From Candidatus Omnitrophota bacterium (lineage in GTDB: Bacteria; Omnitrophota; Gorgyraeia; JAFGHF01), in assembly GCA_042571705.1 (NCBI GenBank), contig JBHPFV010000001.1, forward strand, positions 110,630 through 174,629: 64,000 nucleotides of DNA. Direction: 5' to 3'. Every line of letters starts with the position of its first letter. The stretch's first letter is position 1. The notes below the pieces were generated by a model, which was given only the letters and a program-made list of their open reading frames with translations, was not told the origin of the DNA and made no database searches. Shown piece after piece: positions 1 through 37,901 of this stretch. The translations under genes were made by a program, and so were the position numbers.

Positions 1-1734
1 AGCCGCCGGCCCCAAGGATATGATTGCGACCGTGAGAAATTTATCGGGCCTTATCGCAGTGAAGAGGATCCACAAGCCGTAGCCCGGGGAAGGTCTTTTA
101 ATTCTCAGGCCTCAGGCGGCAATCCGATCGGCTCACTATCTTTTAATTTGCGGCTTAAGCCCCAAGAGACAAAACAGCTGGTGTTTGTGCTCGGTGTGGA
201 GCAGGATAAAGTTCGCGCCCGGCGCAAGGTCAAAAAATTCAGCGACTTAAGCCTGGCGCGTAATGAGTTGCATAAACTTAAGTTAAACTGGAAAAGCTAT
301 CTCAACAGCTTGAGCGTAGATAGCGTGGATAAAGAGTTAAACGCGATGATCAATACCTGGAATGCCTATCAGTGCCGGACCACCTTTAATTGGTCGCGTT
401 CGGCTTCTTATTATGAATCCGGCATCGGCCGGGGGATGGGCTTCCGCGATTCTAACCAGGACTGTTTAGGCGCCCTGCACCGGCTTCCGGAGCGCATCAG
501 ACAACGCATTATCGATTTGGCCGGCAACCAATTTAAGGACGGCAGCGCCTTTCACCAATATTTTCCGCTGACCAAAAAGGGTGACAAGACCGGCTATTCC
601 GATGACCATCTCTGGCTGATTGTCTCTACCGCCGGCTATATAAAGGAAAGCGGAGATACTCAATTCTTGAACCGCCGGATTCGTTTTGCTGATGGCGGAA
701 AAGATACGCTGTATAGCCATTTGGTGCGGGCCATCGCCTATTCCTTTAAACATGTCGGCCGCCATGGCCTGCCGCTGATGGGCTACGCTGATTGGAACGA
801 CTGCCTGAATAATATGGGCCCGGGCGCCGAGAGTGTCTGGGTGGCCCAGTTGCTTTGTTTTGGCTGTAAGGAAATGGCCAGACTGGCTGAATTTATCGGC
901 AAGACCAAAGAGAGCAAAAGATTTAAGCGCCAGGCCGCCAAGATGCAAGAGACGATTAACCGGGTGGCTTGGGACGGCAACTGGTATATCCGGGCCTTTG
1001 ATACCAACGGCAAACCGGTGGGCTCTTCACGCTGCAAAGAGGGTAAAATTTATCTGAACACCCAATCCTGGGCGGTGTTGGCGGATATCGCCCCGCGTAA
1101 GCGACTGACTAAATGTATGAATATGGTTAAGAAGCATCTGGATACCAAATATGGGATAATCTTACTTAATCCGCCTTATACCAGCTTTGACCCAAAAATT
1201 GGCGCGATCGGGACATTTGCCCCCGGGTTAAAAGAAAACGCCGGGATCTTCTGTCACGCTAATCCCTGGGCGGTAATTGCCGAGGTGGCCTTGGGCCGGG
1301 GGACGCAGGCCTTTGATTACTACAAAAAGATTGCCCCGCCGGCCTATAATAAGAGGCCGGATATTCATAACACCGAGGCCTATATTTACTCACAATTTAT
1401 CGCCGGTAAAGATAGTCAGGAATTCGGCCGGGCCAAGAACTCCTGGCTGACCGGTTCAGCGACCTGGAATTTTGTGGCCGCGACCTGGCATATCCTGGGG
1501 ATCCGGCCTGATTACGCCGGGTTAAGAGTGGATCCTTGCATTCCCAAAAATTGGCCCGGATTTAAGGTCGAGCGAGTGTTCAGAAAGACCCGCTACAGCA
1601 TTGAAGTCAAAAACCCGGCCCGGGTTTCAAAAGGCGTAAAAAAGGTTTATGTCGACGAAAACCTGATTGCCGGCAATGTCCTGCCGGTGTTTAAAGACAA
1701 AAAAACGCACCAAGTCAAAGTTATTATGGGATGA
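1..1734 (+). CDS. GH94-family glycan phosphorylase (cellobiose/chitobiose phosphorylase-like), 5' end outside window
   Basis: Frame 1 is open from nt 1 (SRRPQGYDCDREKFIGPYRSEEDP...) and continues into the 148..1734 ORF, so the N-terminus lies outside the window. Motifs GRGMGFRDSNQD and GYADWNDCLN match the GH94 catalytic domain. Confidence 0.8.
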   Translation, partial: SRRPQGYDCDREKFIGPYRSEEDPQAVARGRSFNSQASGGNPIGSLSFNLRLKPQETKQLVFVLGVEQDKVRARRKVKKFSDLSLARNELHKLKLNWKSYLNSLSVDSVDKELNAMINTWNAYQCRTTFNWSRSASYYESGIGRGMGFRDSNQDCLGALHRLPERIRQRIIDLAGNQFKDGSAFHQYFPLTKKGDKTGYSDDHLWLIVSTAGYIKESGDTQFLNRRIRFADGGKDTLYSHLVRAIAYSFKHVGRHGLPLMGYADWNDCLNNMGPGAESVWVAQLLCFGCKEMARLAEFIGKTKESKRFKRQAAKMQETINRVAWDGNWYIRAFDTNGKPVGSSRCKEGKIYLNTQSWAVLADIAPRKRLTKCMNMVKKHLDTKYGIILLNPPYTSFDPKIGAIGTFAPGLKENAGIFCHANPWAVIAEVALGRGTQAFDYYKKIAPPAYNKRPDIHNTEAYIYSQFIAGKDSQEFGRAKNSWLTGSATWNFVAATWHILGIRPDYAGLRVDPCIPKNWPGFKVERVFRKTRYSIEVKNPARVSKGVKKVYVDENLIAGNVLPVFKDKKTHQVKVIMG

Positions 1735-3890
1735 AATATACATCCAAGGATAAGTTAAAGTCCGGGGTACATTTGGGCGGCTTAGGTTGCGGCACGCTGC
1801 AGATCTTTCCCGACGGCACCAGAGGCGTCTTTACCGGACAAAATAATTGGGAACGCCCTTTGGGGACGCTGCATTGGTTTCGTAAGGGTGCCGGCGGCGA
1901 TTACCGGGTGGCCAATCCTTTTGCCATCTATGTGGAAAAGAAAGGCCGGACTCACGCCAAGCTGCTGCAGACCGTGGCCTTAGCCGGTTTACCCACCGTC
2001 AAAGAGATTCAATATCAAGGCTCCTATCCGATCGCTGATCTGGAATTCAAAGATCAGGATCTGCCGCTAAAGATAAAATTAAAGGCCTTTTCTCCGTTAA
2101 TTAAAGAAGACTACAAGAACTCCGGCTTACCCGGCGCTATTTATACGTTCCGCCTGCACAACCCCGCCAGTACTCCGATTACAGTTTCTTTATTAGCTTC
2201 CGGAATAAACTCCAACGGCGACTGGAATGTCGGCCGCTATAATCAAGTGGTTAATGATGGCCGGTTAATCGGGATTAATTTTCACAAAAAAAACGCCCGG
2301 CCCACAGATCCGACAACAGGAACCTTAAGCCTGGCTACCAATTGCCGCCAGGGCAAAATAAGTTATCTGGGCCAGTGGCAATACGCCAAACAGGCCTTTC
2401 GGGGTAAATTGACTGACCGGGATTTTACGGCCTGGAAGTATTTTGCCGCCGACGGCACACTGCCGAACACTAATCCTCAGCGTGAGGCTTATGGTGAATT
2501 TGATGAGTGGATGGCGGCTTTAGCCTGTAAATTTAAGCTCGCCGCGCATCAGACTAAAGAAGTGTCATTTTATTACACCTGGCATATGCCGCGGCATCAT
2601 TTAGGCCACAAGTATGAGCAATGGTTCAAAAATTCCTGGCAGGTGGCCGGCTACATTGACAAGAACAGGAAACAGCTGTTGAAAAAGACACTCAAGTGGC
2701 AAAAGGAATTAAATGCCTGTAAGTTACCCGATTGGCTCAAAGACGCCCTGGTGAATAACCTTTATGTTTATACCGCGGCCAGCTGGTGGACGAAAAAGAG
2801 CGATTTTGCCTTATATGAAAATACGGTCAAATGGCCGTTAATGGATTCCCTGGATGTCCGATATTACGGCACTATTGCCTTGACACTGTTCTTTCCGGAA
2901 TTGGAAAAAAGGACCATGGAGATGTTTGCCCGGGTCCAGCGCCCCGACGGACGGATTGTCCACGATTTGGGCAAAAGCCAGCTGAACTGTCCTTCCGATG
3001 GGACCACCGCGGGCAAGCCCTGGAAGGATTTAAGCACCAAGTTTACCCTGATGGTCTATCGTGATTATTTATGGACCGGCGACCGGACATTCTTAAAAAA
3101 GATGTATCCGGTGCTTAAGAAGGCGATGCGCTGGCAGTTCACTACCGATAAAAATAAAGATTTTCTGCCGGATAATGAGGGTAAGGATTCCACTTTTGAT
3201 GTCTGGGATTTTAGCGGAGTTAATTCTTACACCTCTTCAGTATTTTTGGCTTCCTTGCTGGCCGGGCAAAAAATGGCTAAGATATTCGGGGATGTTGAAT
3301 TCCTAAAAAAATGCCGCGAATATTTTTTAAACGGCCGGGAGAGCTTCCAGCAAAAACTCTGGAATGGTAAATATTATATTGCCGGCTACGAAAATAACGG
3401 CAAGACTTATCAGAGCTCTCTTGCCGGACAGCTCAACGGACAGTGGTATGCCCATTTATTGGGCCTGGGCTATATTCTGCCGCGGGAGTCTGTGCGCCAG
3501 GCAGTAAAGACAATGCTGAAACTAAATACCCAGGCCAGTGAGTTTGGCGCGGTCAACTCCGTGTTTGCCGACGGAAAGATCGACCGTTCCAGTTATCACG
3601 CCGAGAATATTTGGATCGGTGAGACCTACATGCTTTGTTGTTTAGCGATCTATGAAGGTTTTGTCAAAGAAGGTTTAAGCTTAGCGCGTAAACTCTGGCT
3701 GCATATTGCCAAAGGGGCGCTCAACCCCTGGTCGCAAACCGATGTAATTTACGCTAAAAATGGACGGCTCGGGGATGGTGAGCTGTATCTGCGTAATGTC
3801 GCGATTTGGGGCATCCCGCTGGCGTTAGCCAGAACACCGCAGGGCAAGTCGTTGGCCAAATGTCCCTTGTTCAAGAAAGCACTTCGATAA
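1731..3890 (+). CDS. GH116 / GBA2-type beta-glucosidase-like protein
   Basis: 719 aa. The N-terminal GGLGCGTLQIFPDGT... and the overall size and layout resemble GBA2/GH116 enzymes. ATGA overlap with the upstream GH94 gene suggests co-translation. Confidence 0.65.
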   Translation: MKYTSKDKLKSGVHLGGLGCGTLQIFPDGTRGVFTGQNNWERPLGTLHWFRKGAGGDYRVANPFAIYVEKKGRTHAKLLQTVALAGLPTVKEIQYQGSYPIADLEFKDQDLPLKIKLKAFSPLIKEDYKNSGLPGAIYTFRLHNPASTPITVSLLASGINSNGDWNVGRYNQVVNDGRLIGINFHKKNARPTDPTTGTLSLATNCRQGKISYLGQWQYAKQAFRGKLTDRDFTAWKYFAADGTLPNTNPQREAYGEFDEWMAALACKFKLAAHQTKEVSFYYTWHMPRHHLGHKYEQWFKNSWQVAGYIDKNRKQLLKKTLKWQKELNACKLPDWLKDALVNNLYVYTAASWWTKKSDFALYENTVKWPLMDSLDVRYYGTIALTLFFPELEKRTMEMFARVQRPDGRIVHDLGKSQLNCPSDGTTAGKPWKDLSTKFTLMVYRDYLWTGDRTFLKKMYPVLKKAMRWQFTTDKNKDFLPDNEGKDSTFDVWDFSGVNSYTSSVFLASLLAGQKMAKIFGDVEFLKKCREYFLNGRESFQQKLWNGKYYIAGYENNGKTYQSSLAGQLNGQWYAHLLGLGYILPRESVRQAVKTMLKLNTQASEFGAVNSVFADGKIDRSSYHAENIWIGETYMLCCLAIYEGFVKEGLSLARKLWLHIAKGALNPWSQTDVIYAKNGRLGDGELYLRNVAIWGIPLALARTPQGKSLAKCPLFKKALR

Positions 3891-3904
3891 ATTTCTAATT
3901 CCTA

Positions 3905-5155
3905 ATGAAATTCCTAAAAACTATCTTATCTTTATTTTGTATTGCTGGTTTGATTTTCATGGCTGGGTGCTCAGGTCCGGAATCAGCCTCAGAAAAGCAG
4001 GCTGATCAGCCTCAGCAGTTGCTGATGTGGCTGGTCGGCGCGGAAAGCCAGGCCAGGGTAGTGCAGCAGATCGGCCAAGAGTTTTTCCAAGCGGCCAACG
4101 TTGATTTTATTTGCGAGGCGGTCTCTTGGGGCAATGCCCGCACTAAATATTTGACCTGCATCGCCGGCAACCTAATCCCGGATATTGGCACGATGGGACT
4201 GACCTGGGGCACGGAATTCGGCAATTTGGGGGCGATGGTGGATTTGGCCGCCCGATTCCCCGAAGATATCGAAAAAATTAAAGAAAATACATTTTCCGGT
4301 CTTTGGAATGCGGTTGATTATCAAGGCAGTGTCTACGGTGTTGCTTTTGATTTGAGTCTACAAACAATGTTTTACCGCCAGGATATTATCCCTAATCCGC
4401 CTCTTGACTGGCAGGAATTTACAGATTTATTGATTAGCCTAAAACAGCAGGATAAGGGCATGATTTTTGATTGGGGCTCAATCAGCTGGATTGGCTACGC
4501 CCCCTATCTCTGGCAGGCCGGCGGTGACTTTTATAATCCGCAAGGCAGCAAGTCCACTTTAGATTCCGATCAAGCCGTGGCGGCCTTGGAGTTCTTTGCC
4601 AGTCTTTATAACGAATTCGGGATATTAAAGGCCAGGATTCCTTTAGAACAGGGCATGCGCAGCGGAGATTTTCCTCTGGCCATTGCCGGAAATTGGAAAA
4701 TCGATAACCTCAGGCTATCCGCTCCGGAGATTGCCGGGAAATGGTCGATCGCGCTGCTACCGGCCGGGCCGACCACTAAGAACACCGCTTTTCTCGGTGG
4801 ACGGGTGTTGGGGATATTCAATAAATCAAAAAATAAACAAATGGCCTGGGAATTTATCAAGCACTTGTTTGATCCGGAGATTCAGATTAGATTATATCAA
4901 GCCGCCCGAGAGGCCCAGGATTCTTATTTGCCTTCCAATATTAGCAGTTGGAATAAATTACCGATGGAAACAGGATTAAAGCGGGTATTGCAGGCACAGG
5001 CCGAGGATGCCCAGGGCCCGCCCGCTGTTTTAGGCTGGGATGAGAGCACCAGATTTATTGAGCAGGCGATACAAAGGGTAGTTTTGCAGGGCGCTGATGC
5101 CCGGGAAGAACTGGGGCAGGCGACACAAAAGTTAGATCAGAATCTCAAGAAATAA
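3905..5155 (+). CDS. ABC-transporter extracellular solute-binding lipoprotein (sugar-type, family 1), orphan
   Basis: 416 aa with a lipoprotein signal (...GLIFMAGC-SG) and a family-1 SBP-like sequence. No permease or ATPase gene is adjacent. Confidence 0.75.
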   Translation: MKFLKTILSLFCIAGLIFMAGCSGPESASEKQADQPQQLLMWLVGAESQARVVQQIGQEFFQAANVDFICEAVSWGNARTKYLTCIAGNLIPDIGTMGLTWGTEFGNLGAMVDLAARFPEDIEKIKENTFSGLWNAVDYQGSVYGVAFDLSLQTMFYRQDIIPNPPLDWQEFTDLLISLKQQDKGMIFDWGSISWIGYAPYLWQAGGDFYNPQGSKSTLDSDQAVAALEFFASLYNEFGILKARIPLEQGMRSGDFPLAIAGNWKIDNLRLSAPEIAGKWSIALLPAGPTTKNTAFLGGRVLGIFNKSKNKQMAWEFIKHLFDPEIQIRLYQAAREAQDSYLPSNISSWNKLPMETGLKRVLQAQAEDAQGPPAVLGWDESTRFIEQAIQRVVLQGADAREELGQATQKLDQNLKK

Positions 5156-5226
5156 TATAACTTAACATATTGTAAAATAACAAGTTATGTAAATTTATCC
5201 GCAGCATTTTTCCTTGGGTCCAGCCC

Positions 5227-5255
5227 TTGACAATGCTGCCTTTTTATGATATACT
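5227..5255 (+). promoter_or_regulatory. sigma70-like promoter (TTGACA-17 nt-TATACT, TG 2 nt upstream of the -10)
   Basis: TTGACA at 5227-5232, 17-nt spacer, TATACT at 5250-5255, read directly from the sequence. Confidence 0.55.
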
Positions 5256-5295
5256 TGTTCTGAGCAGTTAAGAGTAAAAAAAGTTAGGTTTTCAA

Positions 5296-5337
5296 GACCG
5301 ATTGTCGGTCAAACGGGCGGCAATAGCGGTCTTTTTT
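5296..5337 (+). terminator. intrinsic terminator-like hairpin plus T6
   Basis: GACCG-ATTG-tCG (5296-5307) pairs with CGg-CAAT-ag-CGGTC (5317-5331), about 12 bp with a bulge, followed by TTTTTT (5332-5337). It lies only ~75 nt downstream of the 5227 promoter. Confidence 0.5.
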
Positions 5338-5401
5338 ATTTACACCCTTTGATTACACACGTCGCACGGGGGAAAAGGAGGTATAATTTTTGAAAATTTT
5401 C

Positions 5402-5431
5402 TTGACCGCAGAGTGTTAATTATGTTACAAT
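5402..5431 (+). promoter_or_regulatory. sigma70-like promoter (TTGACC-18 nt-TACAAT)
   Basis: TTGACC at 5402-5407, TG at 5423-5424, TACAAT at 5426-5431. About 55 nt upstream of the 5487 ATG, which has the SD GAAGGAGG. Confidence 0.55.
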
Positions 5432-5486
5432 GAGGCACTGTTGATAAAAGGCTTTAAAAAGTATTTGATTTAGAAGGAGGCTACGC

Positions 5487-6071
5487 ATGAGAGTTGGGCT
5501 ATGTTTATTGTTAGTTGCTAGTTTAATGTTAGCTAGCGGTGTTGGTTTTTGCGAAGAGAAAGTCCTGTTTGGTTTTGAAGATAGTGCCAATATGTGGGAG
5601 ATCCCCGATTGGGCTTATGAGAAAGATGATTATGTCGGAGACAACATCACCCTTTCGAACAAATTCGCCAAAGAAGGCCAATCTTCTTTAGAATTACTGA
5701 CTGATTTTCCCGGCGCCAAATGGACCGCGGCCTATTTAGAGACCCAGGCATATTTTGACTGGACGCCGTATAAAACTATTTCCGCGGATGTGTTTCTACC
5801 CGCCGATGCCCCGTTCGGCTTAAAGGCTAAAATGATCCTGACCGTGGGTGAGGAATGGAAATGGACCGAGATGAGCCGGTTTGTCAAATTGATCCCCGGA
5901 GAGTGGGTAACGATCACCGCCAGCCTTGATCCAGGAAACACTGATTGGCGCAAGACCGAAGTTACTGAAGGATTCCGCTCCGATGTACGCAAGATGGGCA
6001 TCAGGATTGCCTCCAACATGCAGCCCAAATACAGCGGCCCGATCTATCTTGATAATGTACATGTAAAATAG
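5487..6071 (+). CDS. secreted single-domain protein, CBM/jelly-roll-like (lectin-like)
   Basis: 194 aa with a strong SD and a Sec signal peptide. The remainder resembles a carbohydrate-binding-module-type beta-sandwich ending ...GPIYLDNVHV. A similar C-terminal domain occurs in the 60364..61278 protein (...SVLYVEDIAI). Confidence 0.5.
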   Translation: MRVGLCLLLVASLMLASGVGFCEEKVLFGFEDSANMWEIPDWAYEKDDYVGDNITLSNKFAKEGQSSLELLTDFPGAKWTAAYLETQAYFDWTPYKTISADVFLPADAPFGLKAKMILTVGEEWKWTEMSRFVKLIPGEWVTITASLDPGNTDWRKTEVTEGFRSDVRKMGIRIASNMQPKYSGPIYLDNVHVK

Positions 6072-6088: not shown

Positions 6089-6676
6089 ATGAAAAAAAAC
6101 CTAATAATTCTGTTTCTATTGTGGGTGAGTTTAGCGCCGAGAGTTTGTTTTGCGGAAACGGTCAGCGTCACCGCAAGCAGCGCCTTTTCGGTGGCGGAGG
6201 TATTTACTTTAGAATTTTATGATCGCGAACCAGGCAAATACCTTTACTCCACAGAAATACCTTTTACTAACATGGACCCCAGTAAGACCTGGGTTTTAGC
6301 GGACGGCCGCAGAGAAGGTGACGGAAAAAACGATTTGGGGCTTTTATGCAGCACCAACCTGGGCGAGACCTGGTATTTAAAAATACACGGCAGCCCCAAT
6401 AATGTATTCTTGAGTAAGATTCAATACGGTTTATGGCGGCCCTGGAATCTGAATGCGGGCGCAGCCGCTAACGGCAATTTGAACGAAGGATGGATTCCCT
6501 TACCGGCCGCCGCGGTTACAGTTTATAGCGCCGGCAGCAATGATTTGAACAACCTCGGGCCGGAGGCGCAGCAGGGCACACTTTGCGGATTTAGTTTTGC
6601 GGTTGACCCCAGCCGGCTGGATCCCAAAACAGTGCACCGCTGCACAATCCAATTTACGCTAACCACAAATATTTAA
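6089..6676 (+). CDS. secreted beta-rich fibre-subunit-like protein (paralog 1)
   Basis: 195 aa with a signal peptide (…PRVCFA-ET). Clear paralog of 6693..7283: FTLEFY/FSLEFY, IPFTNMDPS/VPFTSVDPG, DGRREGDGKNDLGLL/DGRAEDDGKSDVGLL, WYLKI/WYLKV, C-terminal TIQFTLTT/SVTYTLTQ. Confidence 0.6.
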   Translation: MKKNLIILFLLWVSLAPRVCFAETVSVTASSAFSVAEVFTLEFYDREPGKYLYSTEIPFTNMDPSKTWVLADGRREGDGKNDLGLLCSTNLGETWYLKIHGSPNNVFLSKIQYGLWRPWNLNAGAAANGNLNEGWIPLPAAAVTVYSAGSNDLNNLGPEAQQGTLCGFSFAVDPSRLDPKTVHRCTIQFTLTTNI

Positions 6677-6692
6677 ATCAGCAAAAGAGGAG

Positions 6693-7283
6693 GTGAAAAA
6701 GAAGATGAAGAAGATTTTGCTAAGCGCAATAATGGCTGTTGCCATTTTGGCAATCGCTCATAATGTTTACGCGCAGGACCAGAGCCTCTCAACAACGGTA
6801 ACCGGCACTGTAGCCAGTATATTCTCACTTGAGTTTTACACTGATGCCAACGTGTTATATTCAAGCACCGTTCCCTTTACCAGTGTAGATCCCGGTGATC
6901 AATATAACTACCCTGACGGCAGAGCGGAGGATGATGGCAAATCAGATGTTGGGCTTTTGGTGACCTCAAACCAGAGCACTCCTTGGTATCTGAAGGTTGG
7001 CCTTACTCCCGGTTCAGAACTAACTAGTAAGCTGGCCTATTATATGGGACAGCCTTACAATCGGAACTGGGGAACTCCCTCAGATGGCTCAATCGGACAC
7101 GGTGACTGGTTCAATATTCCCTCAAATATCGCTCCGGAAACAATGTATACAGCCGGGACAGCGGACCAATTGAATACACCGTTTGGCACATTAGCCACTT
7201 TGAGTTTTAAGATCGACGGCGCAGGATTAAGTCCTGGCGGTAAAACTGTCTCAGTCACGTATACCTTGACTCAAACTCCGTAA
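6693..7283 (+). CDS. secreted beta-rich fibre-subunit-like protein (paralog 2)
   Basis: 196 aa with SD GAGGAGG upstream and a signal peptide (…HNVYA-QD). Paralogous to 6089..6676. The C-terminal strand GGKTVSVTYTLTQTP resembles SCPU/DUF4402/WxL-type terminal strands. Confidence 0.6.
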   Translation: MKKKMKKILLSAIMAVAILAIAHNVYAQDQSLSTTVTGTVASIFSLEFYTDANVLYSSTVPFTSVDPGDQYNYPDGRAEDDGKSDVGLLVTSNQSTPWYLKVGLTPGSELTSKLAYYMGQPYNRNWGTPSDGSIGHGDWFNIPSNIAPETMYTAGTADQLNTPFGTLATLSFKIDGAGLSPGGKTVSVTYTLTQTP

Positions 7284-7384
7284 TCCGTTTTCGGAATCGA
7301 GGAGTGTCGAAATAATTTAGCTCATAGAGGAGGGGTGTATCTTTTTGTTTGAAATTTGGCAAGGATAGTGGTATAATTCTTACT

Positions 7385-7912
7385 ATGAATAAATGTTTAC
7401 TATTAGGCTGCTTAATTACTGCACTAGCCTTTCTGCCCGGGTCGGGCCTCGCTGACCAGCTGACCGAGGATGTATTTGCCTCGGTAATTGTCACGCCCAC
7501 CTTTAACATCACTGTTGATAATGATTTCCTTGACTTTGGTCTGGTTAATCCCGGAGAAAGCGCGACTTTAAAGCCAGCCTCACATTTTAACACGGTCAGC
7601 TTTATTTCCAACAAGGCCAGGAAGTATTATCTTAAGATTACGATTCATGGTGATATTAGCGGGCCCAAGGGGGCCAGGATACCTGATTCCAGCGTCAAGT
7701 GGAAGGTGGTTCGGGCCTCAGGCAGCGGAGTGGCCGTAAATGGTTGGCAGGAATTTTCCGATCAACCGTTGTTGGTTTATACCAGCTCAGCCGAAGACGC
7801 AACTGGCGCGGCCAACAAAATAGACTTTCAGTATCGGCTGGATTTACCGCCTCAAGCCTCAGGCGGTAATTATAGCCTGCAATTAGCCTATTCTCTGACT
7901 GAGGAGAAATGA
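7385..7912 (+). CDS. secreted beta-rich fibre-subunit-like protein (paralog 3)
   Basis: Starting at ATG 7385 gives a clean signal peptide (MNKCLLLGCLITALAFLPGSGLA-DQ); TTG 7349 is an alternative start. Motifs: FLDFGLVNPGE, YYLKITIHG, C-terminal ASGGNYSLQLAYSLTEE. Confidence 0.55.
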   Translation: MNKCLLLGCLITALAFLPGSGLADQLTEDVFASVIVTPTFNITVDNDFLDFGLVNPGESATLKPASHFNTVSFISNKARKYYLKITIHGDISGPKGARIPDSSVKWKVVRASGSGVAVNGWQEFSDQPLLVYTSSAEDATGAANKIDFQYRLDLPPQASGGNYSLQLAYSLTEEK

Positions 7913-8409
7913 TGTCTAAGCGATGGTTGCTTATTTTTCTTTTGTTGTTCGCTTTTTTCGCTAAAGATTGCTGGGCGGCTTTTGAGTTTTCTTTAGCCGA
8001 AGGCTACCGGACCATTGATTTTGGCGCGATGGAGCTGAATGAAGAGGAAACTATAGCCGCCAGAGGCGGATATGAACACCAGTTTAATTGCACTTCCGAT
8101 CAGGGCCGGACCTGGCATTTTAAGGCCCAGCTGATCAGGCCTTTTACCAGCGGGACCCAGACCATACCCGCTGAAAACTTGCAGTGGGTGGTCGAGCGGG
8201 TGGGAGCTGGTCGGGGTTTTGTTTCCACCAGTCTTTCTACACCTAGTCCTTTTTCCACCAGTCCGGCGTCAATTTATACCAGCGCTGATACCGACAATAC
8301 CGGCACCGAAGTTCAGATCAGATTAAGATACAAATTACGTATTCCGCAAACTCAGGCAGCCGGTACTTACACTGCGCATATTCGGTTTATTATGGTTGAG
8401 GAGCTCTAA
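7909..8409 (+). CDS. secreted beta-rich fibre-subunit-like protein (paralog 4)
   Basis: 166 aa with an ATGA overlap with the upstream gene and a signal peptide (…AKDCWA-AF). Motifs: TIDFGAMEL, TWHFKAQL, C-terminal AAGTYTAHIRFIMVEE. Confidence 0.55.
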   Translation: MMSKRWLLIFLLLFAFFAKDCWAAFEFSLAEGYRTIDFGAMELNEEETIAARGGYEHQFNCTSDQGRTWHFKAQLIRPFTSGTQTIPAENLQWVVERVGAGRGFVSTSLSTPSPFSTSPASIYTSADTDNTGTEVQIRLRYKLRIPQTQAAGTYTAHIRFIMVEEL

Positions 8410-8414
8410 AGTTT

Positions 8415-9236
8415 ATGCTAGATAAAAAAAGCGCAGTTTGTTTGCTGACCATCTTGGCCTGCTTTTTTTTATTTGCTGATCAGCCCCAAGCCGCGGTCAA
8501 GATGAATGTCGACCCTCCCCGGGTGGAAATAACTATGGCGCCGGGTCAGGAGCAGGGCGGGCAGATCTCAATATTTAACCACGACCAGACCGGGCCGATC
8601 CATGTCAAGGCCTATGTCAATGATTTGGTCTATCTGCCCGACGGAAGCAATGACTTCTTAGCCAGCGGGACTACGCCCTGGAGCGTGGCCGACTGGGTCA
8701 AGATCAGCCCGACTGAATTCGAGGTGCCGCCGGGTGAGCCGAAGCAGGTGCGTTATATAGTGGAGATCCCCCCTGGCGCCCAGGGCGGAAGATACGGGGT
8801 GGTCTTCTTTGAGATTTCACCTAGACTCCAGGAGCTGAAAGATAAGACCGGGGCGGCGGTAAATTTAAGAATCGGCTCGATTTTTTTGCTGGTAGCCAAA
8901 GGCACAGAAGTAAATAGCGCCGAGTTAATCGACTTAAAAGTCGGCTCAGCGGACGCCGCTGGCAGCTTTGCGATATCCTGCAATATCAGAAATGACAGTA
9001 ATATCCTGGTCCGGCCATTTGGCACAGTAAAGATACTCAGTGACGCCAGCACCGAGCTGGCTGAAGTAATGATCAATGAATCAAAGTCCGGGGTCTTGCC
9101 GGGCACCAGCAGGCAATTTTCAGCTACTTACGATCAAACCAAGCTTGCTCCAGGTGAATATTCGGCGCTGGCGGTTTTAGACTACGGAGGAGAGGTTTTA
9201 TTGGGCGGACAATCCCGATTTACTATTAGTAGGTAG
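8415..9236 (+). CDS. secreted two-domain Ig-like protein, periplasmic-chaperone-like (PapD-like or DUF916/DUF3324-like)
   Basis: 273 aa with a signal peptide (…DQPQA-AV). It has two beta-sandwich-like halves. The first (VDPPRVEITMAPGQEQGGQISIFNHDQTGPIHVKAYVND...) has the 'V.P....l.pG....v.v.N' pattern of pilus chaperones and DUF916. It sits directly after the four subunit genes. Confidence 0.5.
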   Translation: MLDKKSAVCLLTILACFFLFADQPQAAVKMNVDPPRVEITMAPGQEQGGQISIFNHDQTGPIHVKAYVNDLVYLPDGSNDFLASGTTPWSVADWVKISPTEFEVPPGEPKQVRYIVEIPPGAQGGRYGVVFFEISPRLQELKDKTGAAVNLRIGSIFLLVAKGTEVNSAELIDLKVGSADAAGSFAISCNIRNDSNILVRPFGTVKILSDASTELAEVMINESKSGVLPGTSRQFSATYDQTKLAPGEYSALAVLDYGGEVLLGGQSRFTISR

Positions 9237-16271: not shown

Positions 16272-19200
16272 ATGAGAAAGATTAGCAAGAGTTTAGTCTG
16301 TTGTCTGATCTGGGTAGTCGTATTTATTATATCTGCCGCAGGCTTAGTAGCGGCCGATAGCTACTCAGATTATTTTTTAGAGGACAACGAACAGGAATTT
16401 GTCACTCCGGAGAATATTCGTGAGTTGGCCCGGATTCATTATTCTCGGGCCAGAGAGTTTTACCGCCGCGGGGAATATACCCAGGCCCGTAGAGAGTTTT
16501 CCGAGGTGCTCAAATATGACCCCAGGCATCAAGGCGCCCAGTGGTATTTGGAGGCCATCCAGCAGGAAATAGCCAAGCACGGCGTGAGCCCAATGCAGGT
16601 TGGTGAGTCAGGCCGGTTGACAAAATCAAAGAGCTTACAGCAAGCGTTAGATACAGTTGAAGGCAGCGACAATCAGGTTCGCGAACAGAAGGCTAAGCAG
16701 CAGGCGATTATCGATGCTGAGGAGAAAATGCAAGAGCAAAAGAGCCGGCGCTGGCGTAGCCAGGATCACAAAAGCAGGCTTAAATATCAGAAACAGCGTA
16801 AACAGCAACAAGCCCAGGCAGTTAAAGAAGCAATCGACGACCATCTGATCCAGGCCAAATACTTTTACCAAGAGGGCGATTTTGCTCAAGCTGAACAGGA
16901 ATGCCAACAGGCCCTGGAGCTGGATCCTAAAAATAAAGAGATTCGTAGCCTCCTGCAGAAGATTGCCCGGGCTAAAAGCCGGATCGCGGAACAAAAGCGC
17001 AAGACCAAAAGAGAAGCGGCCCTGCAGGCTCAAGCAAAATTAAGAAAGGAAAAAGCGCTTCGAACAAAGAAAGAAAGATCGGAGCAACTTAAGGCCAAAA
17101 AAGATAATCAAGAGCTAGAGCAGAAGATCAGGCTGCATTATAACCAAGGCAAGAAACATTTTAAAAATAAAGACTATATTGCCGCGCGTAAAGAATTTAA
17201 AGACATCTTGATTTTTGATCCCAAGAATAAATATGCCTTAAATGCCATAGAAAAAGTAGAAGCCACGATCCGAAAAGAAGAAAGGGAGGCTGAGCAAAAG
17301 CGGCGCCAGGAGGAAAAGCTGGCAGCCAAGCAGCGCAAAGAAACTATCGCCCAACATTTCGGCCAGGGTAAGATTTATGTTCATGAGAGAAAATATACTC
17401 AGGCCTTGGAAGAATTTAAGCAGGTTTTAATCCTTGATCCGGGTAATACCACAGCGGAAAAATTTATTATAGAATGCCGTAAACTATTGGTTAAGTCTCA
17501 GCGCCTGAAGAAAGAACACTTAAGTAAAGTCAAGCAGGCCGAGAAACAGGCCTTAAGGCAGGCCCAGCAGGAGTTAGCCAATCGGGCTGAGCAAAAGGCC
17601 CGCGAGGAAGAACGGGCCAGGCTAGAAGCCGAGCAAGAAACGAAAAAGCAACGCCAGGAAAAGATCAAGCAGCATCTGGCTCAGGGCAAAATTTACTGGC
17701 ATCAAAACCAATACGCCCAGGCTGTTGAAGAACTGAAACAGGTTCTAATTCTTGAGCCGGATCATCGCAGCGCCGAAAAACTACTTTTAAAGAGCAAGAA
17801 ACGCGTCGCCCTCGCCCAGCGCCGCGAACAAGAGCGCCTGGAAAAAGACAAGCAACGCCAGGCCCAGGCCTGGCGCCGCGAACAAGAGCGTCTGGAAGAA
17901 GAAAAACAACGCCAGGAGCGTGAGGCCGAGCGCGAAGCTGAGCAGGCTAGAATCGAGGCTGAACAAGCCAAAATCAAGGCTGAGAAAAAAGCCCAGGAAC
18001 AAAAACGCCAAAAAGAGTTGGCCCGGCAAAAACAGCTCAAAGAAACAATCAACTTTCATCTTGAAGGAGCCAAACATTACTTTAATCTACAGGAATTTGA
18101 CCAAGTTAAAGCTAAGCTTGATCAGGTGTTTAAACTCGATCCCGCAAACAAAACAGCCCGCCAATATCTATCCAGGATCGAGCAGACCATCAGGGAACAA
18201 GAGCGGGCTGAGGTTTTAGCTGAGCGCAAAGAAAAGCAACGCCAGGCCCAGGCCTGGCGCCGCGAACAAGAGCGTCTGGAAAAAGAAAAACAACGCCAGG
18301 AGCGTGAGGCCGAATTAGCCAGGATTAAGGCTGAAAAAGAAATTGAGCTTGCCAGAATCAAGGCTGAGAAAGAAGAGCGTTTGCGTCAAGAACGCTTAGA
18401 AAAAGAAAAGCAACGCCAAGAACGCGAGGCCGAACTCGCCAGAATCAAGGCTGAGCGCGAAGCTGAGCAAACCAGAATCGAGGCCGAGAAAGAGGTCCGG
18501 CTGGCTAAGATTAAAGCTGAGAAAGAAGAACGCCTGCGTCAACAGCTCCTGGCGAAAGAAAAGCAACGCCAAGAACGTCAGACCAAGCTAGCCAGGATCA
18601 AGGCCGAGAAAGAAGCTCAGGAACAAAAACGTCAAAAAGAGTTAGCCCGGCAAAAACAGCTCAAAGAAAAAATCAACTTTCATCTTGAAGGAGCCAAACA
18701 CAACTTTAATCTGCAGCAATTCGACCAGGTTAAAGCTAAGCTTGATCAGGTGTTTAAACTCGATCCCGCAAACAAAGCGGCCTACAAATATCTATCCAGG
18801 ATCGAGCAGACCATCAGGGAACAAAAGCAGGCTAAGGTTTTAGCTGAGCGTACAGAAAAACAGCGCCAGCTGCGTGAAGAGCTCCTGCGCAAAAAACGCG
18901 CAGCCGACACCCAACGCCGCGAACAAGAACGCCTGGTAGAAGAAAAGCGCCAAGCTAAACTTGAGGCTGAACTAGCCAGACAAAAAAGGCGCGAAAAAAC
19001 AATAGCGCGCTTCTTAACTCAAGGAAAAGTTTATTTTCATCAGGAAAAATATAAACAGGCGCTCAAAGAATTTAAGCAAGTTTTAATTGTCGACCAGGAT
19101 CATCCCCAGGCAGAAAAATATATCTTAAAATGCAGCAAGGCTATAGCCAGAGTCCAGCGCCGCGAACAGGAACGCCTGGCGAAAGAAAAACAGCGCCGGG

Positions 19201-22200
19201 AACAGGAGGCTGAAGCAGCCAGGATCAAGGCTGAGAAAGAAGCCCGACTAGCCAGGATCAAGGCCGATAAAGAGGCCCAGGAACAAAAACGCCAAAAAAG
19301 ACTAGCCCAACAGCGCCAGCTGGCCGAAAAGATCAATTTTCATCTCACCCAAGGGAAATATCATCTCCAGGAGCAGAAGTTCGACCTGGCTAAGCAGGAA
19401 TTTGGTAAGGTCCTTTTTCTGGACCACAACAACCAACCCGCCCAAAAATACCTGAGCCGGATGGAAAAGGCAGTTAAGCAACAAGCAGCTGCCCAAGCCC
19501 TCACTCAGCGCCGCGAACAAGAGCGCCTGGCAAAAGAAAAACAGCTCCGGGAACAGGAGGCTGAAGCAGCCAGGATCAAGGCTGAGAAAGAAGCCCGACT
19601 AGCCAAGATCAAGGCCGATAAAGAGGCCCAGGAACAAAAACGCCAGGAACAAGAAGCCCAGCAGCGCCAGCTAGCCGAAAAAATCAATATCCACCTCGAA
19701 GAAGGCAAATACTACTTTAAGGAGCAGGAATTCGCCCAGGCCCGATCAGAGTTTAAGCAAGTCCTGGCCCTGGACTTCAAAAACAAAACCGCCCGTGATT
19801 ATATCCATAAAATCGAAAAGAACTTAAAACAGGACCTGCCCCAATTTTCAGCCGCCGGAAAACTAGATACTAGCCGCGAAGTCAGGTTAGACAAGTTAAT
19901 GGCTGAGCAAATGCTGGAGTTGGAACAGACACTCCAGGGCTATCAGGATGTATTAAAAGGTGACCGCCTGGCCCAAAAGGAAGCCCGGCTCGATGACAAA
20001 GTCGCTTTGTATAGAACTAAACTGGCTAAGTTAGAGCAGCAGAAGCTGAAGATCGGGCAGATCGACCCGGATACCTATCAACAGGGCCTAACACTGCAAC
20101 AAGACGCTGAATACAAAAGTCTAGAGTTAAAGCTGACCAATAAGTTACGCCGGGCAAAGACAGAACAGCTGGAGAAGACCTTGCAGGCTGCGCTACAGCG
20201 CAAAGAGGCCGAGATAGGAGAAAAGATCAGGGCCTACGAAGCCAGTATCGATGAACTGAAAAAAGAAAAGGCCCGGCCATTCTATCAACAAGGTTTAGCC
20301 CAGCTTAAGAAGAAACAATACGCTCAAGCCAAAGAAAGCCTGGATAAAGCCCTGTCCATTTACCCTGATTATCAGCGTGCCAGAACAGCTCGCGAACAGA
20401 TTGATAATAAAGAGAAGCTGGAGATTTATTTCGTTGATGGCAAAGATCATTTTGAAAACCAGGAGTATGAGCAAGCTAGAAAGAAATTCGAAAAGATAGT
20501 TGAGCTTGATTATAATCATCAGCCGGCGCGAAAATATTTATCCCAGATTAAAGAACAACAACGGCGTTGGACAGAAAAGCAGCGCCAGGCCCAAGATCAG
20601 GCGGTAATCGAGGCCCAGAAAAAATTAGCTAAACAAAAGCAGCGCCAGCTAGCCGAAAAAATCAATATCCACCTCGAAGAAGGCAAATACTACTTTAAGG
20701 AGCAGGAATTCGCCCAGGCCCGATCAGAGTTTAAGCAAGTCCTGGCCCTGGACTTCAAAAACAAAACCGCCCGTGATTATATCCATAAAATCGAAAAGAA
20801 CTTAAAACAGGACCTGCCCCAATTTTCAGCCGCCGGAAAACTAGATACTAGCCGCGAAGTCAGGTTAGACAAGTTAATGGCTGAGCAAATGCTGGAGTTG
20901 GAACAGACACTCCAGGGCTATCAGGATGTATTAAAAGGTGACCGCCTGGCCCAAAAGGAAGCCCGGCTCGATGACAAAGTCGCTTTGTATAGAACTAAAC
21001 TGGCTAAGTTAGAGCAGCAGAAGCTGAAGATCGGGCAGATCGACCCGGATACCTATCAACAGGGCCTAACACTGCAACAAGACGCTGAATACAAAAGTCT
21101 AGAGTTAAAGCTGACCAATAAGTTACGCCGGGCAAAGACAGAACAGCTGGAGAAGACCTTGCAGGCTGCGCTACAGCGCAAAGAGGCCGAGATAGGAGAA
21201 AAGATCAGGGCCTACGAAGCCAGTATCGATGAACTGAAAAAAGAAAAGGCCCGGCCATTCTATCAACAAGGTTTAGCCCAGCTTAAGAAGAAACAATACG
21301 CTCAAGCCAAAGAAAGCCTGGATACAGCGCTGTCTATTTACCCTGACTACCAGCCGGCCAAAGACGCCCGGGAACAGATTGATACTGAGGAGAAAGTCCA
21401 GTGGCATCTTGCCCAAGGCGAATATTATCTTGGGAAACAAGAGTACGCCCGGGCGCGATTAGAGTTTGAAAAAGTTTTCAAATTAGACTACAGAAACCAA
21501 CAGGCCAAAGATTCGCTGAACAAGATTAACAGCCAAGTCCGAGAGGTAGCGACTGCCCAAGCGCAAGCGAGAAAAGAGGAAACAGCGCGCCGGCAGCAGG
21601 CAAAAATAAATTTTCATCTTAATCAGGGCAAATACTTCTTTGTTGAAGAAAAATATAGCCAGGCCAGATCAGAGCTTAAGAAGGTCCTGGCCTTAGACAG
21701 CACAAACAAACCGGCCCAAGACTATTTAAGCAAAGTTGGCAAAGCGGCCAAGGAAAACGCCCGTGCTGAAGTCATGGCCAGGGCTGAGGAAAAACAGCGC
21801 CGGCAGGAACAATTGCGTCTAGCTAAGATTAAAGCAGGGCAGCTAGCCAAAGAGAAAAGGCGCCAGGAGGAATTGGCCAAGAAACGCGAGCTGGAAAGAA
21901 GGGTTGATTTTCACCTGGCCCAGGGCCGCTATCTTCTCAGCCAGGAAAATTACGCTATGGCCAAAGAAGAATTTAATAAAATCCTGGCCTTGGATTTCGA
22001 GAACAAACAGGCCGAAAGGTATTTAAATAAAATTACCGAAATAGTTGAGAAAGAAAAGCGCAATGAACAGCTGGCCAGAGAGAAAGCAAGGCAACGCCGG
22101 GCCAAAGAAACCGCCGAGAAAAAGCGCCAGGAGGAATTGGCCCGGGAACGGGAGCTGGAAAAAAGGATCGCTATTTACATCAGAAAGGGCAGGCTCTACT

Positions 22201-25763: not shown

Positions 25764-25767
25764 TAAA

Positions 25768-28404: not shown

Positions 28405-28458
28405 TTTTAAACCCCTTTGTTTTGGGAATGATAGCATATTCGAGGGTTTTTGTCAAGC

Positions 28459-37185: not shown

Positions 37186-37191
37186 ATTTAA

Positions 37192-37244: not shown

Positions 37245-37260
37245 GACAGCGGTTATCTTT

Positions 37261-37857: not shown

Positions 37858-37901
37858 TTCCATAACCATTTTTGCGGCTTTCACTCGGCATTTTGTGCTT
37901 G

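What the first reader, a model, noticed from the sequence alone, without database searches (positions are those of the whole stretch)
6089..8409. Four subunit genes form a graded paralog series with donor-strand-like N-termini
Seen:
- 6089-6676 and 6693-7283 are close paralogs, with blocks FTLEFY/FSLEFY, PFTNMDPS/PFTSVDPG, DGRxExDGKxDxGLL and WYLK.
- 7385-7912 and 7909-8409 are more divergent, shorter and translationally coupled (ATGA overlap).
- The mature N-termini (ETVSVTASSAFSVAEVFTLEF; QDQSLSTTVTGTVASIFSLEF; DQLTEDVFASVIVTPTFNITV; AFEFSLAEGYRTIDF) are strands of alternating small/hydrophobic residues.

Inference: this layout fits two major-type plus two minor or tip/adaptor-type subunits that polymerise by strand exchange.
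Basis: partly seen in the sequence, partly recalled or inferred. Interest (0 to 1): 0.55.

Follow-up and report, generated by a model that had tools for sequence, protein, structure and literature searches.

The report
Chaperone-assisted pilus-like gene cluster in Omnitrophota
The four small genes encode related secreted subunits that sit next to a pilus-chaperone-like protein and a large probable outer-membrane protein, which together look like an undescribed relative of chaperone-usher pili in the uncultured phylum Omnitrophota.

Summary
The four ORFs are real and homologous. S1 and S2 share 37% identity (E 2e-34) and S3 and S4 share 27% (E 4e-12). The two pairs are linked only at profile level (hhalign 96%, E 1.9e-9).

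They open a module conserved in Omnitrophota: 1-4 S1/S2-type genes, one S3-type, one S4-type, a 273-aa protein, a 0.9-1.5-kaa secreted protein, and a small convergent ORF. Reduced versions occur in Marinamargulisbacteria, UBP8 and Actinomycetota.

- **273-aa protein:** it folds confidently (pLDDT 93.7). Its best structural matches are enterococcal WxLIP, then chaperone-usher chaperones (CfaA, CsuC, FimC, Caf1M).
- **N-terminal extensions:** S1-S3 carry a ~15-residue extension. S4, always the gene next to the chaperone, lacks it in 15/15 loci.
- **Natural fusions:** multi-domain relatives start without the extension, and each later domain is preceded by an extension-like strand.
- **S1 model:** pLDDT 77.5, with the extension below 50. 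Its best but non-significant fold matches are self-complemented FimA.
- **Family membership:** none of the four subunits passes any Pfam or NCBIfam model, and the large protein is not a Pfam usher.

Best reading: a donor-strand pilus system. Polymerisation is inferred, not shown. This is a new variant of a known kind.

The parts
6089..6676 (+). S1, a shaft-type subunit candidate (195 aa; signal peptide 1-22, N-terminal extension, beta-sandwich core)
   Evidence: ORF. It is 100% identical to NCBI ACFL1I_00095 of a Candidatus Omnitrophota bacterium. Orthologues are the first subunit gene in L001/L004/L007 and others. AF2 gives pLDDT 77.5.
6155..6199 (+). S1 N-terminal extension ETVSVTASSAFSVAE, the putative donor strand
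   Evidence: This extra segment is absent from the S4 family. AF2 pLDDT is below 50, although DSSP calls a strand at residues 3-9.
6693..7283 (+). S2, a second shaft-type subunit candidate (196 aa), paralogue of S1
   Evidence: 37% identity to S1, E 2e-34. Orthologue of gene 'b' in L001/L004, at 57-59% identity.
6774..6818 (+). S2 N-terminal extension QDQSLSTTVTGTVAS
   Evidence: Alignment A5 and spacing analysis.
7385..7912 (+). S3, an adaptor-type subunit candidate (175 aa; alternative TTG start at 7349)
   Evidence: 27% identity to S4. Single-copy and always second-to-last subunit gene. A sigma-70-like site lies at 7349-7377.
7454..7498 (+). S3 N-terminal extension DQLTEDVFASVIVTP
   Evidence: The A-S-V-x-V core is among the most conserved positions of S3-type proteins across 14 loci.
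7909..8409 (+). S4, a tip/initiator-type subunit candidate (166 aa) with no N-terminal extension
   Evidence: The mature protein starts at the first core strand in all 24 family members. It is the gene next to the chaperone gene and lacks the extension in 15/15 loci. There is a weak sub-threshold match to NF058581 CPR_Pam_pilin_C, E 0.0073. ATGA overlap with S3.
8415..9236 (+). Periplasmic two-domain chaperone-like protein (273 aa; WxLIP/PapD fold, no membrane anchor)
   Evidence: The family profile hits EfmWxLIP1 (9i25_C/9i1y_A) at E 2e-4 over the full length, and EcpB (5dfk) at E 1e-3. AF2 gives pLDDT 93.7. Foldseek ranks WxLIP first at 2.5e-12, then CfaA, CsuC, FimC, DraB, Caf1M and SafB. 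Of 50 homologues, 16 hit WxLIP_HBD and 10 hit WxLIP_PGBD weakly, and none hits PapD_N/C.
9410..12715 (+). Large secreted protein (1101 aa), putative outer-membrane assembly platform. Layout: TPR, a Cu_amine_oxidN1-like domain, about 500 aa of probable beta-barrel, then two SdrD_B/CarboxypepD_reg-like domains.
   Evidence: Pfam domains. It always follows the chaperone gene in the diderm lineages. The terminal Phe is nearly invariant in 16 homologues. No Usher match. The barrel is inferred only.
12716..12994 (-). Small convergent secreted protein (92 aa). Its mature N-terminus is a conserved alternating strand, RSQTLTSTIVITVKP. Possible extra component such as a terminator or anchor (speculative).
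   Evidence: Detected on the opposite strand at or within ~330 nt of the end of the large gene in the window and in 12 further distinct Omnitrophota loci (16 locus entries, some duplicates; L001, L004, L007, L008, L012, L014-L020), E from 1.7e-27 down to 3e-3. A promoter-like site lies at 13142-13114.

Best explanation
The four genes encode secreted single-domain beta-sandwich subunits of one superfamily. Together with the three following genes they form a chaperone-assisted, donor-strand-type surface fibre (pilus) system of a diderm Omnitrophota bacterium.

**Proposed mechanism** (only step 2's fold is computed; everything else is inferred):
1. All components are exported by Sec through N-terminal signal peptides.
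2. The soluble 273-aa WxLIP/PapD-fold protein binds each subunit in the periplasm by inserting a strand into its incomplete fold. The fold is shown by modelling. The binding is inferred by analogy with the solved WxLIP-WxL complex and with chaperone-usher chaperones.
3. S4 has no extension to donate, so it is incorporated first and ends up at the distal tip.
4. S3 donates its conserved extension (..FASVxVxP) to S4 and acts as an adaptor.
5. S1 and S2 then polymerise head-to-tail as the shaft, each donating its roughly 15-residue extension to the preceding subunit.
6. The 1101-aa protein provides the outer-membrane platform or pore.
7. The small convergent 92-aa protein, which is little more than a signal peptide plus a strand, may cap or anchor the fibre.

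**Likely function:** adhesion to surfaces, polysaccharide or host cells.
For: **Homology.** The four are homologous.

**Conserved module.**
- The order [S1/S2-type x1-4][S3][S4][chaperone-like][large protein] recurs in about 15 Omnitrophota loci whose upstream context differs.
- Reduced forms occur in Marinamargulisbacteria and UBP8.
- In Actinomycetota there is only a subunit plus a longer (416-469 aa) chaperone-like protein whose C-terminal region gave only weak sub-threshold matches to transmembrane families in 2 of 3 scanned (a membrane anchor is inferred), and no large protein.

**Chaperone-like protein.**
- pLDDT is 93.7, with two beta-sandwich domains.
- The best Foldseek hits are WxLIP, including the entry 'WxLIP bound to long WxL', followed by dozens of chaperone-usher chaperones at E 1e-8 to 1e-10.
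- The sequence profile hits EfmWxLIP1 (E 2e-4) and EcpB (E 1e-3).

**Subunits.**
- The extension is present in S1-S3 and absent in S4-type in 15/15 loci.
- In S3-type proteins the alternating A-S-V-x-V of the extension is among the most conserved positions.
- Of 149 family representatives, 26 are multi-domain. About ten of the eleven three-domain ones begin without an extension directly after the signal peptide (one, P0228, is unclear), and the later domains are preceded by an extension-like strand (..VxVxIxP-xFxLxV). This is the topology of engineered donor-strand-complemented pilins.
- In the S1 model the core is confident and the extension has pLDDT below 50. The top Foldseek hits are self-complemented FimA monomers (6r7e prob 0.95; 6r74, 5nkt, 2m5g), a Sulfolobus donor-strand thread (7pnb) and SafA.
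- Relatives give sub-threshold hits to pilin families: CPR_Pam_pilin_C in 21/138 (best 2e-6), DUF4402 in 4 (best 1e-5), SCPU in 3 (best 5.8e-4).

**Outer membrane.**
- The window encodes a BamD/YfiO-like lipoprotein at 25687-26727.
- The large protein has a signal peptide, no hydrophobic helix and a nearly invariant C-terminal Phe.
- Two distant homologues carry the T2SS-T3SS_pil_N pilus-formation domain above Pfam threshold.
Against: - No direct evidence of polymerisation exists.
- The S1 Foldseek matches are all above E 1e-3 with TM 0.3-0.46. Jelly-roll folds (APC10, CBM32) appear just below the pilins.
- None of the four window proteins passes any Pfam or NCBIfam model.
- The large protein has no similarity to ushers or to any solved outer-membrane protein. 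Its barrel rests on composition and a weak amphipathicity signal.
- The S1/S2-type extensions are poorly conserved between paralogues.
- By sequence the chaperone is closer to WxLIP than to PapD. No filament has been reported for WxL systems in the papers read (PMC10599100, PMC9772566).
Confidence: 0.6

Rival explanations
1. A non-filamentous WxL-type surface complex. The 273-aa WxLIP homologue permanently holds one or a few subunits by strand insertion, as proposed for Gram-positive WxL clusters. The subunits act as envelope-attached binding modules rather than a polymer. The large protein anchors or exports the complex.
For: - The chaperone-like protein's closest sequence and structure relatives are WxLIPs.
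- WxL clusters also combine several small secreted paralogues with one WxLIP (PMC9772566, PMC10599100).
- S1/S2/S3 carry a W/Y-Y-L-K motif reminiscent of the first WxL motif.
- In some genomes the cluster lies beside glycan-utilisation genes. This echoes the carbohydrate-utilisation proposal for Lactobacillus clusters (PMC1534035, title and abstract only).
Against: - No Pfam WxL-domain match came up for the subunits of the window or of four distant loci (E up to 1) or among the families reported for 138 relatives (E up to 0.01).
- The window protein lacks the C-terminal membrane helix that defines WxLIP.
- The S1 model did not match the WxL chain of 9i25 in the top 50.
- This reading does not explain the systematic loss of the extension in exactly one subunit per locus, or the fusion architecture.
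- Neighbouring genes are not conserved between L001 and L004.
Confidence: 0.22
2. Secreted carbohydrate-binding or otherwise self-complete beta-sandwich proteins that serve the adjacent glycoside-hydrolase/ABC-transporter genes. The PapD-like neighbour would be an unrelated Ig-fold protein.
For: - GH94, GH116, a solute-binding protein and a mannanase-GBD-like secreted protein lie directly upstream. The last ends 17 nt before S1.
- Foldseek lists CBM32/CBM22 and APC10-type jelly rolls among weak hits.
Against: - The sugar genes are absent upstream in L001, where glycosyltransferases and radical-SAM genes sit instead, yet the subunit-chaperone-large-protein module is intact.
- The CBM hits have probability 0.08-0.44, against 0.6-0.95 for FimA.
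- The module also occurs in other phyla without these neighbours.
Confidence: 0.08
3. A chaperone-free donor-strand filament of the TasA or archaeal-thread type. The subunits would self-assemble outside the cell, and the two downstream genes would have other roles.
For: The Sulfolobus 0406 thread (7pnb) is among the S1 fold hits. Such filaments also use N-terminal donor strands, according to the titles and abstracts of 10.1101/2024.12.30.630787 and PMC9245690 listed.
Against: The tight and phylum-spanning linkage to the WxLIP/PapD-fold gene argues that the chaperone-like protein is part of the system. A diderm also needs an outer-membrane route.
Confidence: 0.05

Closest known systems
Archaic (sigma) chaperone-usher pili, e.g. 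Acinetobacter baumannii Csu (csuA/B-A-B-C-D-E), with SCPU-family subunits
   Same: - Several small paralogous subunit genes are followed by a two-domain periplasmic chaperone and a large outer-membrane protein.
- The chaperone fold matches CsuC (5d6h, 6fqa), CfaA, FimC and Caf1M.
- Subunits carry an N-terminal extension and a C-terminal aGxYt-x-phi-x-phi motif.
- A few relatives give weak SCPU and DUF4402 hits.
   Different: - No PapD_N/PapD_C, Usher, Fimbrial or SCPU Pfam match for the window proteins.
- The large protein has a different domain set: TPR, Cu_amine_oxidN1-like, and SdrD_B/CarboxypepD_reg.
- The tip candidate is a single domain without a separate adhesin domain.
- The chaperone and outer-membrane genes lie after all subunit genes.
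- The Csu gene order is from my own knowledge.
WxL / WxLIP (DUF916-DUF3324) cell-surface clusters of Lactobacillales and Bacillales
   Same: - The 273-aa protein is a remote homologue of WxLIP over both domains.
- The clusters combine a WxLIP with several small secreted beta-rich paralogues.
- AlphaFold2 predicts insertion of a WxLIP strand into WxL (PMC10599100), and the complex is solved (9i25, title).
   Different: - There is no C-terminal membrane helix and no Pfam WxL domain.
- The organism is a diderm, and the cluster has an added large outer-membrane-type protein.
- The subunits have an N-terminal extension pattern that suggests polymerisation.
Pam pili of Candidate Phyla Radiation bacteria (bioRxiv 10.64898/2026.03.03.709456)
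   Same: - Donor-strand exchange pilins with a truncated Ig-like acceptor domain.
- PapD/FimC-like chaperones encoded in the operon.
- A single-domain tip pilin (PamT) that lacks a donor strand, like S4.
- Weak sub-threshold NF058581 matches in S4 and in 21/138 relatives.
- The chaperone profile also finds a Saccharibacteria protein (L026).
   Different: - Pam pilins are two-domain proteins of 39-55 kDa that donate an inter-domain linker.
- Pam chaperones are membrane-anchored, and there is no outer-membrane component.
- The paper reports Pam pilins as exclusive to CPR.
- Here the subunits are single-domain (145-175 aa mature), the chaperone is soluble, and a large outer-membrane-type protein is present.

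Membership tests
Canonical chaperone-usher pili | Periplasmic two-domain PapD-fold chaperone | tested here: met
   AF2 gives pLDDT 93.7. Foldseek hits CfaA, CsuC, FimC, DraB, Caf1M, SafB and PapD at E 1e-8 to 1e-10. This holds by fold only.
Canonical chaperone-usher pili | Chaperone belongs to the PapD_N/PapD_C sequence families | tested here: not met
   No PapD_N or PapD_C hit in the window protein or in 50 homologues at E up to 0.1. The only link is a profile hit to EcpB at E 1e-3.
Canonical chaperone-usher pili | Outer-membrane usher (Pfam Usher PF00577, with plug and C-terminal domains) | tested here: not met
   No Usher hit in 16 homologues. No usher among PDB profile hits.
Canonical chaperone-usher pili | Subunits with an incomplete Ig-like fold completed by a neighbour's N-terminal extension | tested here: inconclusive
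   The extension pattern, the fusions and the low-confidence extension in the S1 model fit this feature.
Canonical chaperone-usher pili | Subunits in the Fimbrial/SCPU/DUF4402 sequence families | tested here: not met
   No hits for S1-S4. Only 3-4 of 138 relatives give weak SCPU or DUF4402 hits.
WxL/WxLIP clusters | WxLIP protein (PGBD/DUF916 plus HBD/DUF3324) | tested here: inconclusive
   The profile hits EfmWxLIP1 at E 2e-4 over the full length, and WxLIP tops the Foldseek list. Every Pfam hit whose score was returned is below the gathering score: the window protein's WxLIP_PGBD scores 13.8 bits against a 27.3 cut-off, and the best hits among 50 homologues are E 2e-4 to 3e-4.
WxL/WxLIP clusters | C-terminal transmembrane helix on the WxLIP | tested here: not met
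   The model is beta-strand to the last residue, and the only helix is the signal peptide. The Actinomycetota relatives (416-469 aa) have an extra C-terminal region that, in 2 of 3 scanned, gave only weak sub-threshold hits to transmembrane families.
WxL/WxLIP clusters | Partner proteins with a Pfam WxL domain (two W-x-L motifs) | tested here: not met
   No WxL hit in S1-S4 or in ten subunits from four distant loci at E up to 1, and WxL is not among the families reported for 138 relatives at E up to 0.01. Only one W/Y-x-L/F-K motif is present.
Pam pili (CPR) | Pilin C-terminal domain model NF058581 | tested here: not met
   S4 scores 16.4 bits against a cut-off of 55. 21/138 relatives give weak hits, best E 2e-6.
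Pam pili (CPR) | Two-domain pilins that donate an inter-domain linker, membrane-anchored chaperones, and no outer-membrane component | tested here: not met
   Here the subunits are single-domain, the chaperone is soluble, and a large outer-membrane-type protein is present. Pam features are taken from 10.64898/2026.03.03.709456.
Pam pili (CPR) | Single-domain tip pilin without a donor strand (PamT) | tested here: met
   S4-type proteins lack the extension in 15/15 loci. This is an analogy, not shown to be orthology.

The most novel reading that the evidence does not exclude
This would be a previously unrecognised class of chaperone-assisted donor-strand pili in diderm bacteria (Omnitrophota, Marinamargulisbacteria, UBP8). 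It would use a WxLIP-type soluble chaperone and an outer-membrane assembly protein unrelated in sequence to ushers. Its monoderm relatives (an Actinomycetota version with a longer, possibly anchored chaperone, Firmicutes WxL clusters, CPR Pam pili) would belong to the same ancient superfamily. If so, WxL clusters, Pam pili and chaperone-usher pili are branches of one assembly principle that predates the monoderm/diderm split, and the small strand-only protein would be a new kind of terminator or anchor.
Probability: 0.4. Interest if true: 0.8.

Novelty: new variant of a known kind. Interest (0 to 1): 0.62.

Why it matters
**For Omnitrophota.** These are uncultured, mostly ultra-small and probably host-dependent bacteria. 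Their attachment structures have so far been described only as type IV and Tad pili and giant ORFs (PMC10066038, which mentions no usher, fimbria or PapD). A third, chaperone-assisted fibre system would add a candidate adhesion organelle.

**For pilus biology.**
- The locus links three systems treated separately in the literature: chaperone-usher pili, Gram-positive WxL/WxLIP clusters and CPR Pam pili.
- It offers a non-usher outer-membrane partner whose mechanism could be studied.
- The family has 408 clusters at 50% identity and no Pfam or NCBIfam model of its own.

Tried and rejected
- **Subunit dimer model.** I built a fused S1-linker-S1 alignment to model subunit-subunit strand exchange.
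- **Subunit sequence searches against the PDB.** S1, S4 and the profiles A1, A2 and A7 gave nothing meaningful. The A7 'hits' to Fab chains are signal-peptide artefacts.
- **Large protein against the PDB.** Only the SdrD-like C-terminal domains and TPR noise matched.
- **Beta-amphipathicity scan of the central 500 aa.** It found 5 segments against 1.0 +/- 0.9 in shuffles. That is too weak to call a barrel.
- **Literature searches.** I searched for this system in Omnitrophota, Margulisbacteria and uncultured bacteria, and for a paper on the 9i25 WxLIP-WxL structure. Neither was found.
- **Context of the three-domain fusion P0181.** The contigs are too short and no DNA is held.
- **Saccharibacteria hit L026.** It is cut by the contig end, so a link to a pam operon could not be checked.
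- **Lipoprotein or type V pilus reading.** I considered and dropped it. No lipobox is conserved and cleavage looks like type I, judged by eye.
- **Direct homology of the subunits to the WxL domain.** No HMM or fold support was found, so this remains only a lead.
Full report
**1. Observation.**

The four ORFs are present as described: S1 6089-6676, S2 6693-7283, S3 7385-7912 and S4 7909-8409.
- S3 and S4 are 27% identical (E 4e-12). They overlap by ATGA, with a GAGGAG just upstream.
- Across the two pairs, BLASTP is not significant. Profiles built from each pair's homologues align with hhalign probability 96.3%, E 1.9e-9. Orthologues from related loci cross-hit directly.
- The four are therefore one superfamily in two subfamilies.
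- S1 is identical to a hypothetical protein of a Candidatus Omnitrophota MAG.

**2. Correction to the N-termini.**

- In a 35-sequence alignment, S1, S2 and S3 each carry about 15 residues between the signal-peptide cleavage site and the first core strand. The whole S4 family starts at that strand.
- I measured the distance from the end of the signal-peptide hydrophobic core to the conserved Phe of the l-D-F-G motif. It is 6-19 residues for the gene adjacent to the chaperone in 15 of 15 loci.
- For the other subunit genes it is 26-43 residues. One L008 value of 7 is a mis-measurement by my heuristic.
- In S3-type proteins the A-S-V-x-V of the extension is among the most conserved positions. 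In S1/S2-type paralogues the extension is variable.

**3. Surroundings.**

Three more genes travel with the four:
- a 273-aa secreted protein (8415-9236);
- an 1101-aa secreted protein (9410-12715);
- a convergent 92-aa secreted protein (12716-12994).

Distribution of the module:
- The order is conserved in contigs carrying S1 homologues whose upstream genes differ. L001 has glycosyltransferase and radical-SAM genes upstream. L004 and the window have glycoside-hydrolase and ABC genes.
- A scan of one genome per species with the 273-aa family profile found 27 loci. Most are Omnitrophota; a few of these are labelled Planctomycetia in TPA records. The rest are three Marinamargulisbacteria, one UBP8, one Saccharibacteria and six Actinomycetota or unclassified.
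- HMMs built in the sandbox show the layout [1-4 S1/S2-type][one S3-type][one S4-type][chaperone-like][large protein] throughout Omnitrophota.
- Marinamargulisbacteria and UBP8 have one to three detected subunit genes, the chaperone-like gene and, where the contig reaches that far, a 783-920-aa homologue of the large protein.
- Actinomycetota have a subunit plus a 416-469-aa chaperone-like protein and no large protein. In two of the three such proteins scanned the C-terminal region gave weak, sub-threshold matches to transmembrane families, so a membrane anchor is inferred, not shown.
- The 92-aa ORF is detected at or within ~330 nt of the end of the large gene, on the opposite strand, in the window and in 12 further distinct Omnitrophota loci. 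Its mature N-terminus is the conserved strand [RE][ST]xTLTTxhhhThhP.

**4. The 273-aa protein.**

- Pfam and NCBIfam give nothing above threshold.
- A profile of 50 homologues matches the solved Enterococcus faecium WxLIP1 over its full length (E 2e-4) and the E. coli fimbrial chaperone EcpB in part (E 1e-3).
- Of the 50 homologues, 16 hit WxLIP_HBD and 10 hit WxLIP_PGBD weakly. None hits PapD_N or PapD_C.
- AlphaFold2 gives a confident two-domain beta-sandwich model (pLDDT 93.7, pTM 0.83). The only helix is the signal peptide, so there is no C-terminal anchor.
- Foldseek against the PDB ranks WxLIP first (2.5e-12), including the entry 'bound to long WxL'. A long list of chaperone-usher chaperones follows: CfaA, CsuC, FimC, DraB, YadV, Caf1M, SafB, FaeE, CupB2 and PapD.
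- JGI's pipeline had already labelled two homologues 'P pilus assembly chaperone PapD'.
- The fold assignment is solid. Chaperone activity is inferred.

**5. The subunits.**

- The S1 model, made with a 35-row alignment and the signal peptide removed, has pLDDT 77.5 and pTM 0.78. The C-terminal half is confident. Residues 1-15 are below 50, although a strand is drawn at 3-9.
- No Foldseek match reaches E 1e-3. The top hits are self-complemented FimA monomers (6r7e, prob 0.95; 6r74; 5nkt; 2m5g, TM 0.43-0.46), a Sulfolobus donor-strand thread (7pnb) and SafA. APC10 and CBM jelly rolls are interleaved at lower probability.
- An exhaustive profile search found 408 clusters at 50% identity with E up to 1e-3, and 167 with E up to 1e-10.
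- Among 138 representatives, 21 give sub-threshold hits to the Pam pilin C-terminal domain model (best 2e-6), 4 to DUF4402 (best 1e-5) and 3 to SCPU (best 5.8e-4). This places the family at the edge of the donor-strand pilin world without making it a member of any curated family.
- 26 of 149 representatives are natural two- or three-domain fusions. About ten of the eleven three-domain proteins begin without an extension directly after the signal peptide (one, P0228, is unclear). The later domains are preceded by a strand resembling the S3 extension.
- One such fusion lies two genes upstream of a chaperone-like gene in an Omnitrophota MAG, with a 210-aa subunit-like ORF between them (L025).
- This arrangement matches engineered donor-strand-complemented pilins. 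That comparison rests on my own knowledge of the Fim/Pap literature. I take it as Rosetta-stone evidence that the extension of unit n+1 serves unit n.

**6. The large protein.**

- **Pfam domains:** TPR at the N-terminus, Cu_amine_oxidN1-like at 245-349, and SdrD_B/CarboxypepD_reg-like at about 900-1090. SdrD_B is found in 16/16 homologues, CarboxypepD_reg in 14/16 and Cu_amine_oxidN1 in 11/16.
- **Link to pilus biogenesis:** two distant homologues carry the T2SS-T3SS_pil_N 'pilus formation' domain above threshold.
- **No usher similarity:** nothing matches the Usher family or any solved outer-membrane protein.
- **Central region:** residues 375-900 have no hydrophobic helix, are rich in Tyr, Phe, Asp, Ser and Thr, and show a modest excess of beta-amphipathic segments.
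- **Terminal residue:** the final residue is Phe in at least 90% of 16 homologues.
- **Diderm envelope:** the window also encodes a BamD/YfiO-like lipoprotein, so a BAM-dependent outer membrane is expected.
- **Conclusion:** outer-membrane location and a platform role are inference.

**7. Mechanism and rivals.**

- The best-supported reading is a donor-strand fibre. S4 is the tip, S3 the adaptor, S1/S2 the shaft, the 273-aa protein the periplasmic chaperone, and the large protein the outer-membrane platform (confidence about 0.6).
- The main rival is a non-polymerising WxL-type complex (about 0.2). It shares the strand-insertion principle. It does not explain the one-per-locus subunit without an extension, or the fusions.
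- A carbohydrate-binding role tied to neighbouring sugar genes is unlikely, because those neighbours are not conserved.

**8. Comparison and novelty.**

- The system works like archaic chaperone-usher pili. It fails their sequence-family tests for chaperone, usher and subunit.
- It is homologous to WxLIP. It lacks the anchor and the WxL domain.
- It resembles Pam pili in principle, including a tip without a donor strand. It differs in pilin architecture, chaperone anchoring and the presence of an outer-membrane protein. The Pam paper reports Pam pilins as CPR-exclusive (10.64898/2026.03.03.709456).
- The Omnitrophota survey paper describes only type IVa and Tad pili and giant ORFs. My literature searches found no description of this module.
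- I rate it a new variant of a known kind, with interest 0.62.

Noticed in passing
window 12716-12994 (-): A small convergent ORF (92 aa) made of a signal peptide plus a conserved alternating strand, RSQTLTSTIVITVKP, and a conserved C-terminal ..IYxIxDRL. It lies at or within ~330 nt of the end of the large gene, on the opposite strand, in the window and in 12 further distinct Omnitrophota loci. It may be a strand-donating cap or anchor.
   Followed up: partly
window 13424-14974 (+): A PilZ domain fused to a ROK-family protein (516 aa), just downstream of the cluster. It could be a c-di-GMP-responsive sugar regulator. A link to the pilus-like genes was not tested.
   Followed up: no
window 16227-24689 (+): A 2820-aa ORF made almost entirely of TPR repeats. 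It coincides with a strong AT skew of 0.32-0.44 over 16-24 kb.
   Followed up: partly
window 148-6071 (+): A run of sugar-utilisation genes: GH94, GH116, an ABC solute-binding protein and a secreted mannanase-GBD-like protein. The last (5487-6071) ends 17 nt before S1 and may be co-transcribed in this genome. It is not part of the conserved module.
   Followed up: partly
window 25687-26727 (+): A BamD/YfiO-like TPR lipoprotein, which indicates a BAM-type outer membrane in this organism.
   Followed up: no
L027-L032 (Actinomycetota / Acidimicrobiia MAGs), e.g. L027 7320-9200: A monoderm version of the module: one 175-aa subunit followed by a 416-469-aa chaperone-like protein. In two of three scanned, the C-terminal region gave weak sub-threshold matches to transmembrane families. 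There is no large-protein homologue. The chaperone layout may be like WxLIP and PamC/D.
   Followed up: partly
L021 7992-9698: In one marine Omnitrophota MAG the chaperone-like gene is 568 aa, with an added DUF7507-like C-terminal part. The following large protein carries two T2SS-T3SS_pil_N domains.
   Followed up: no
P0126, P0145, P0147, P0162 (family representatives): Two-domain relatives with a divergent N-terminal domain of about 190 aa without an extension, followed by a strand and a canonical subunit domain. They resemble two-domain tip adhesins. Their genomic context is unknown.
   Followed up: no
window 28001-30000 and 36001-38000: Local negative AT skew (-0.25 and -0.13) in an otherwise positive profile. 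Not examined.
   Followed up: no
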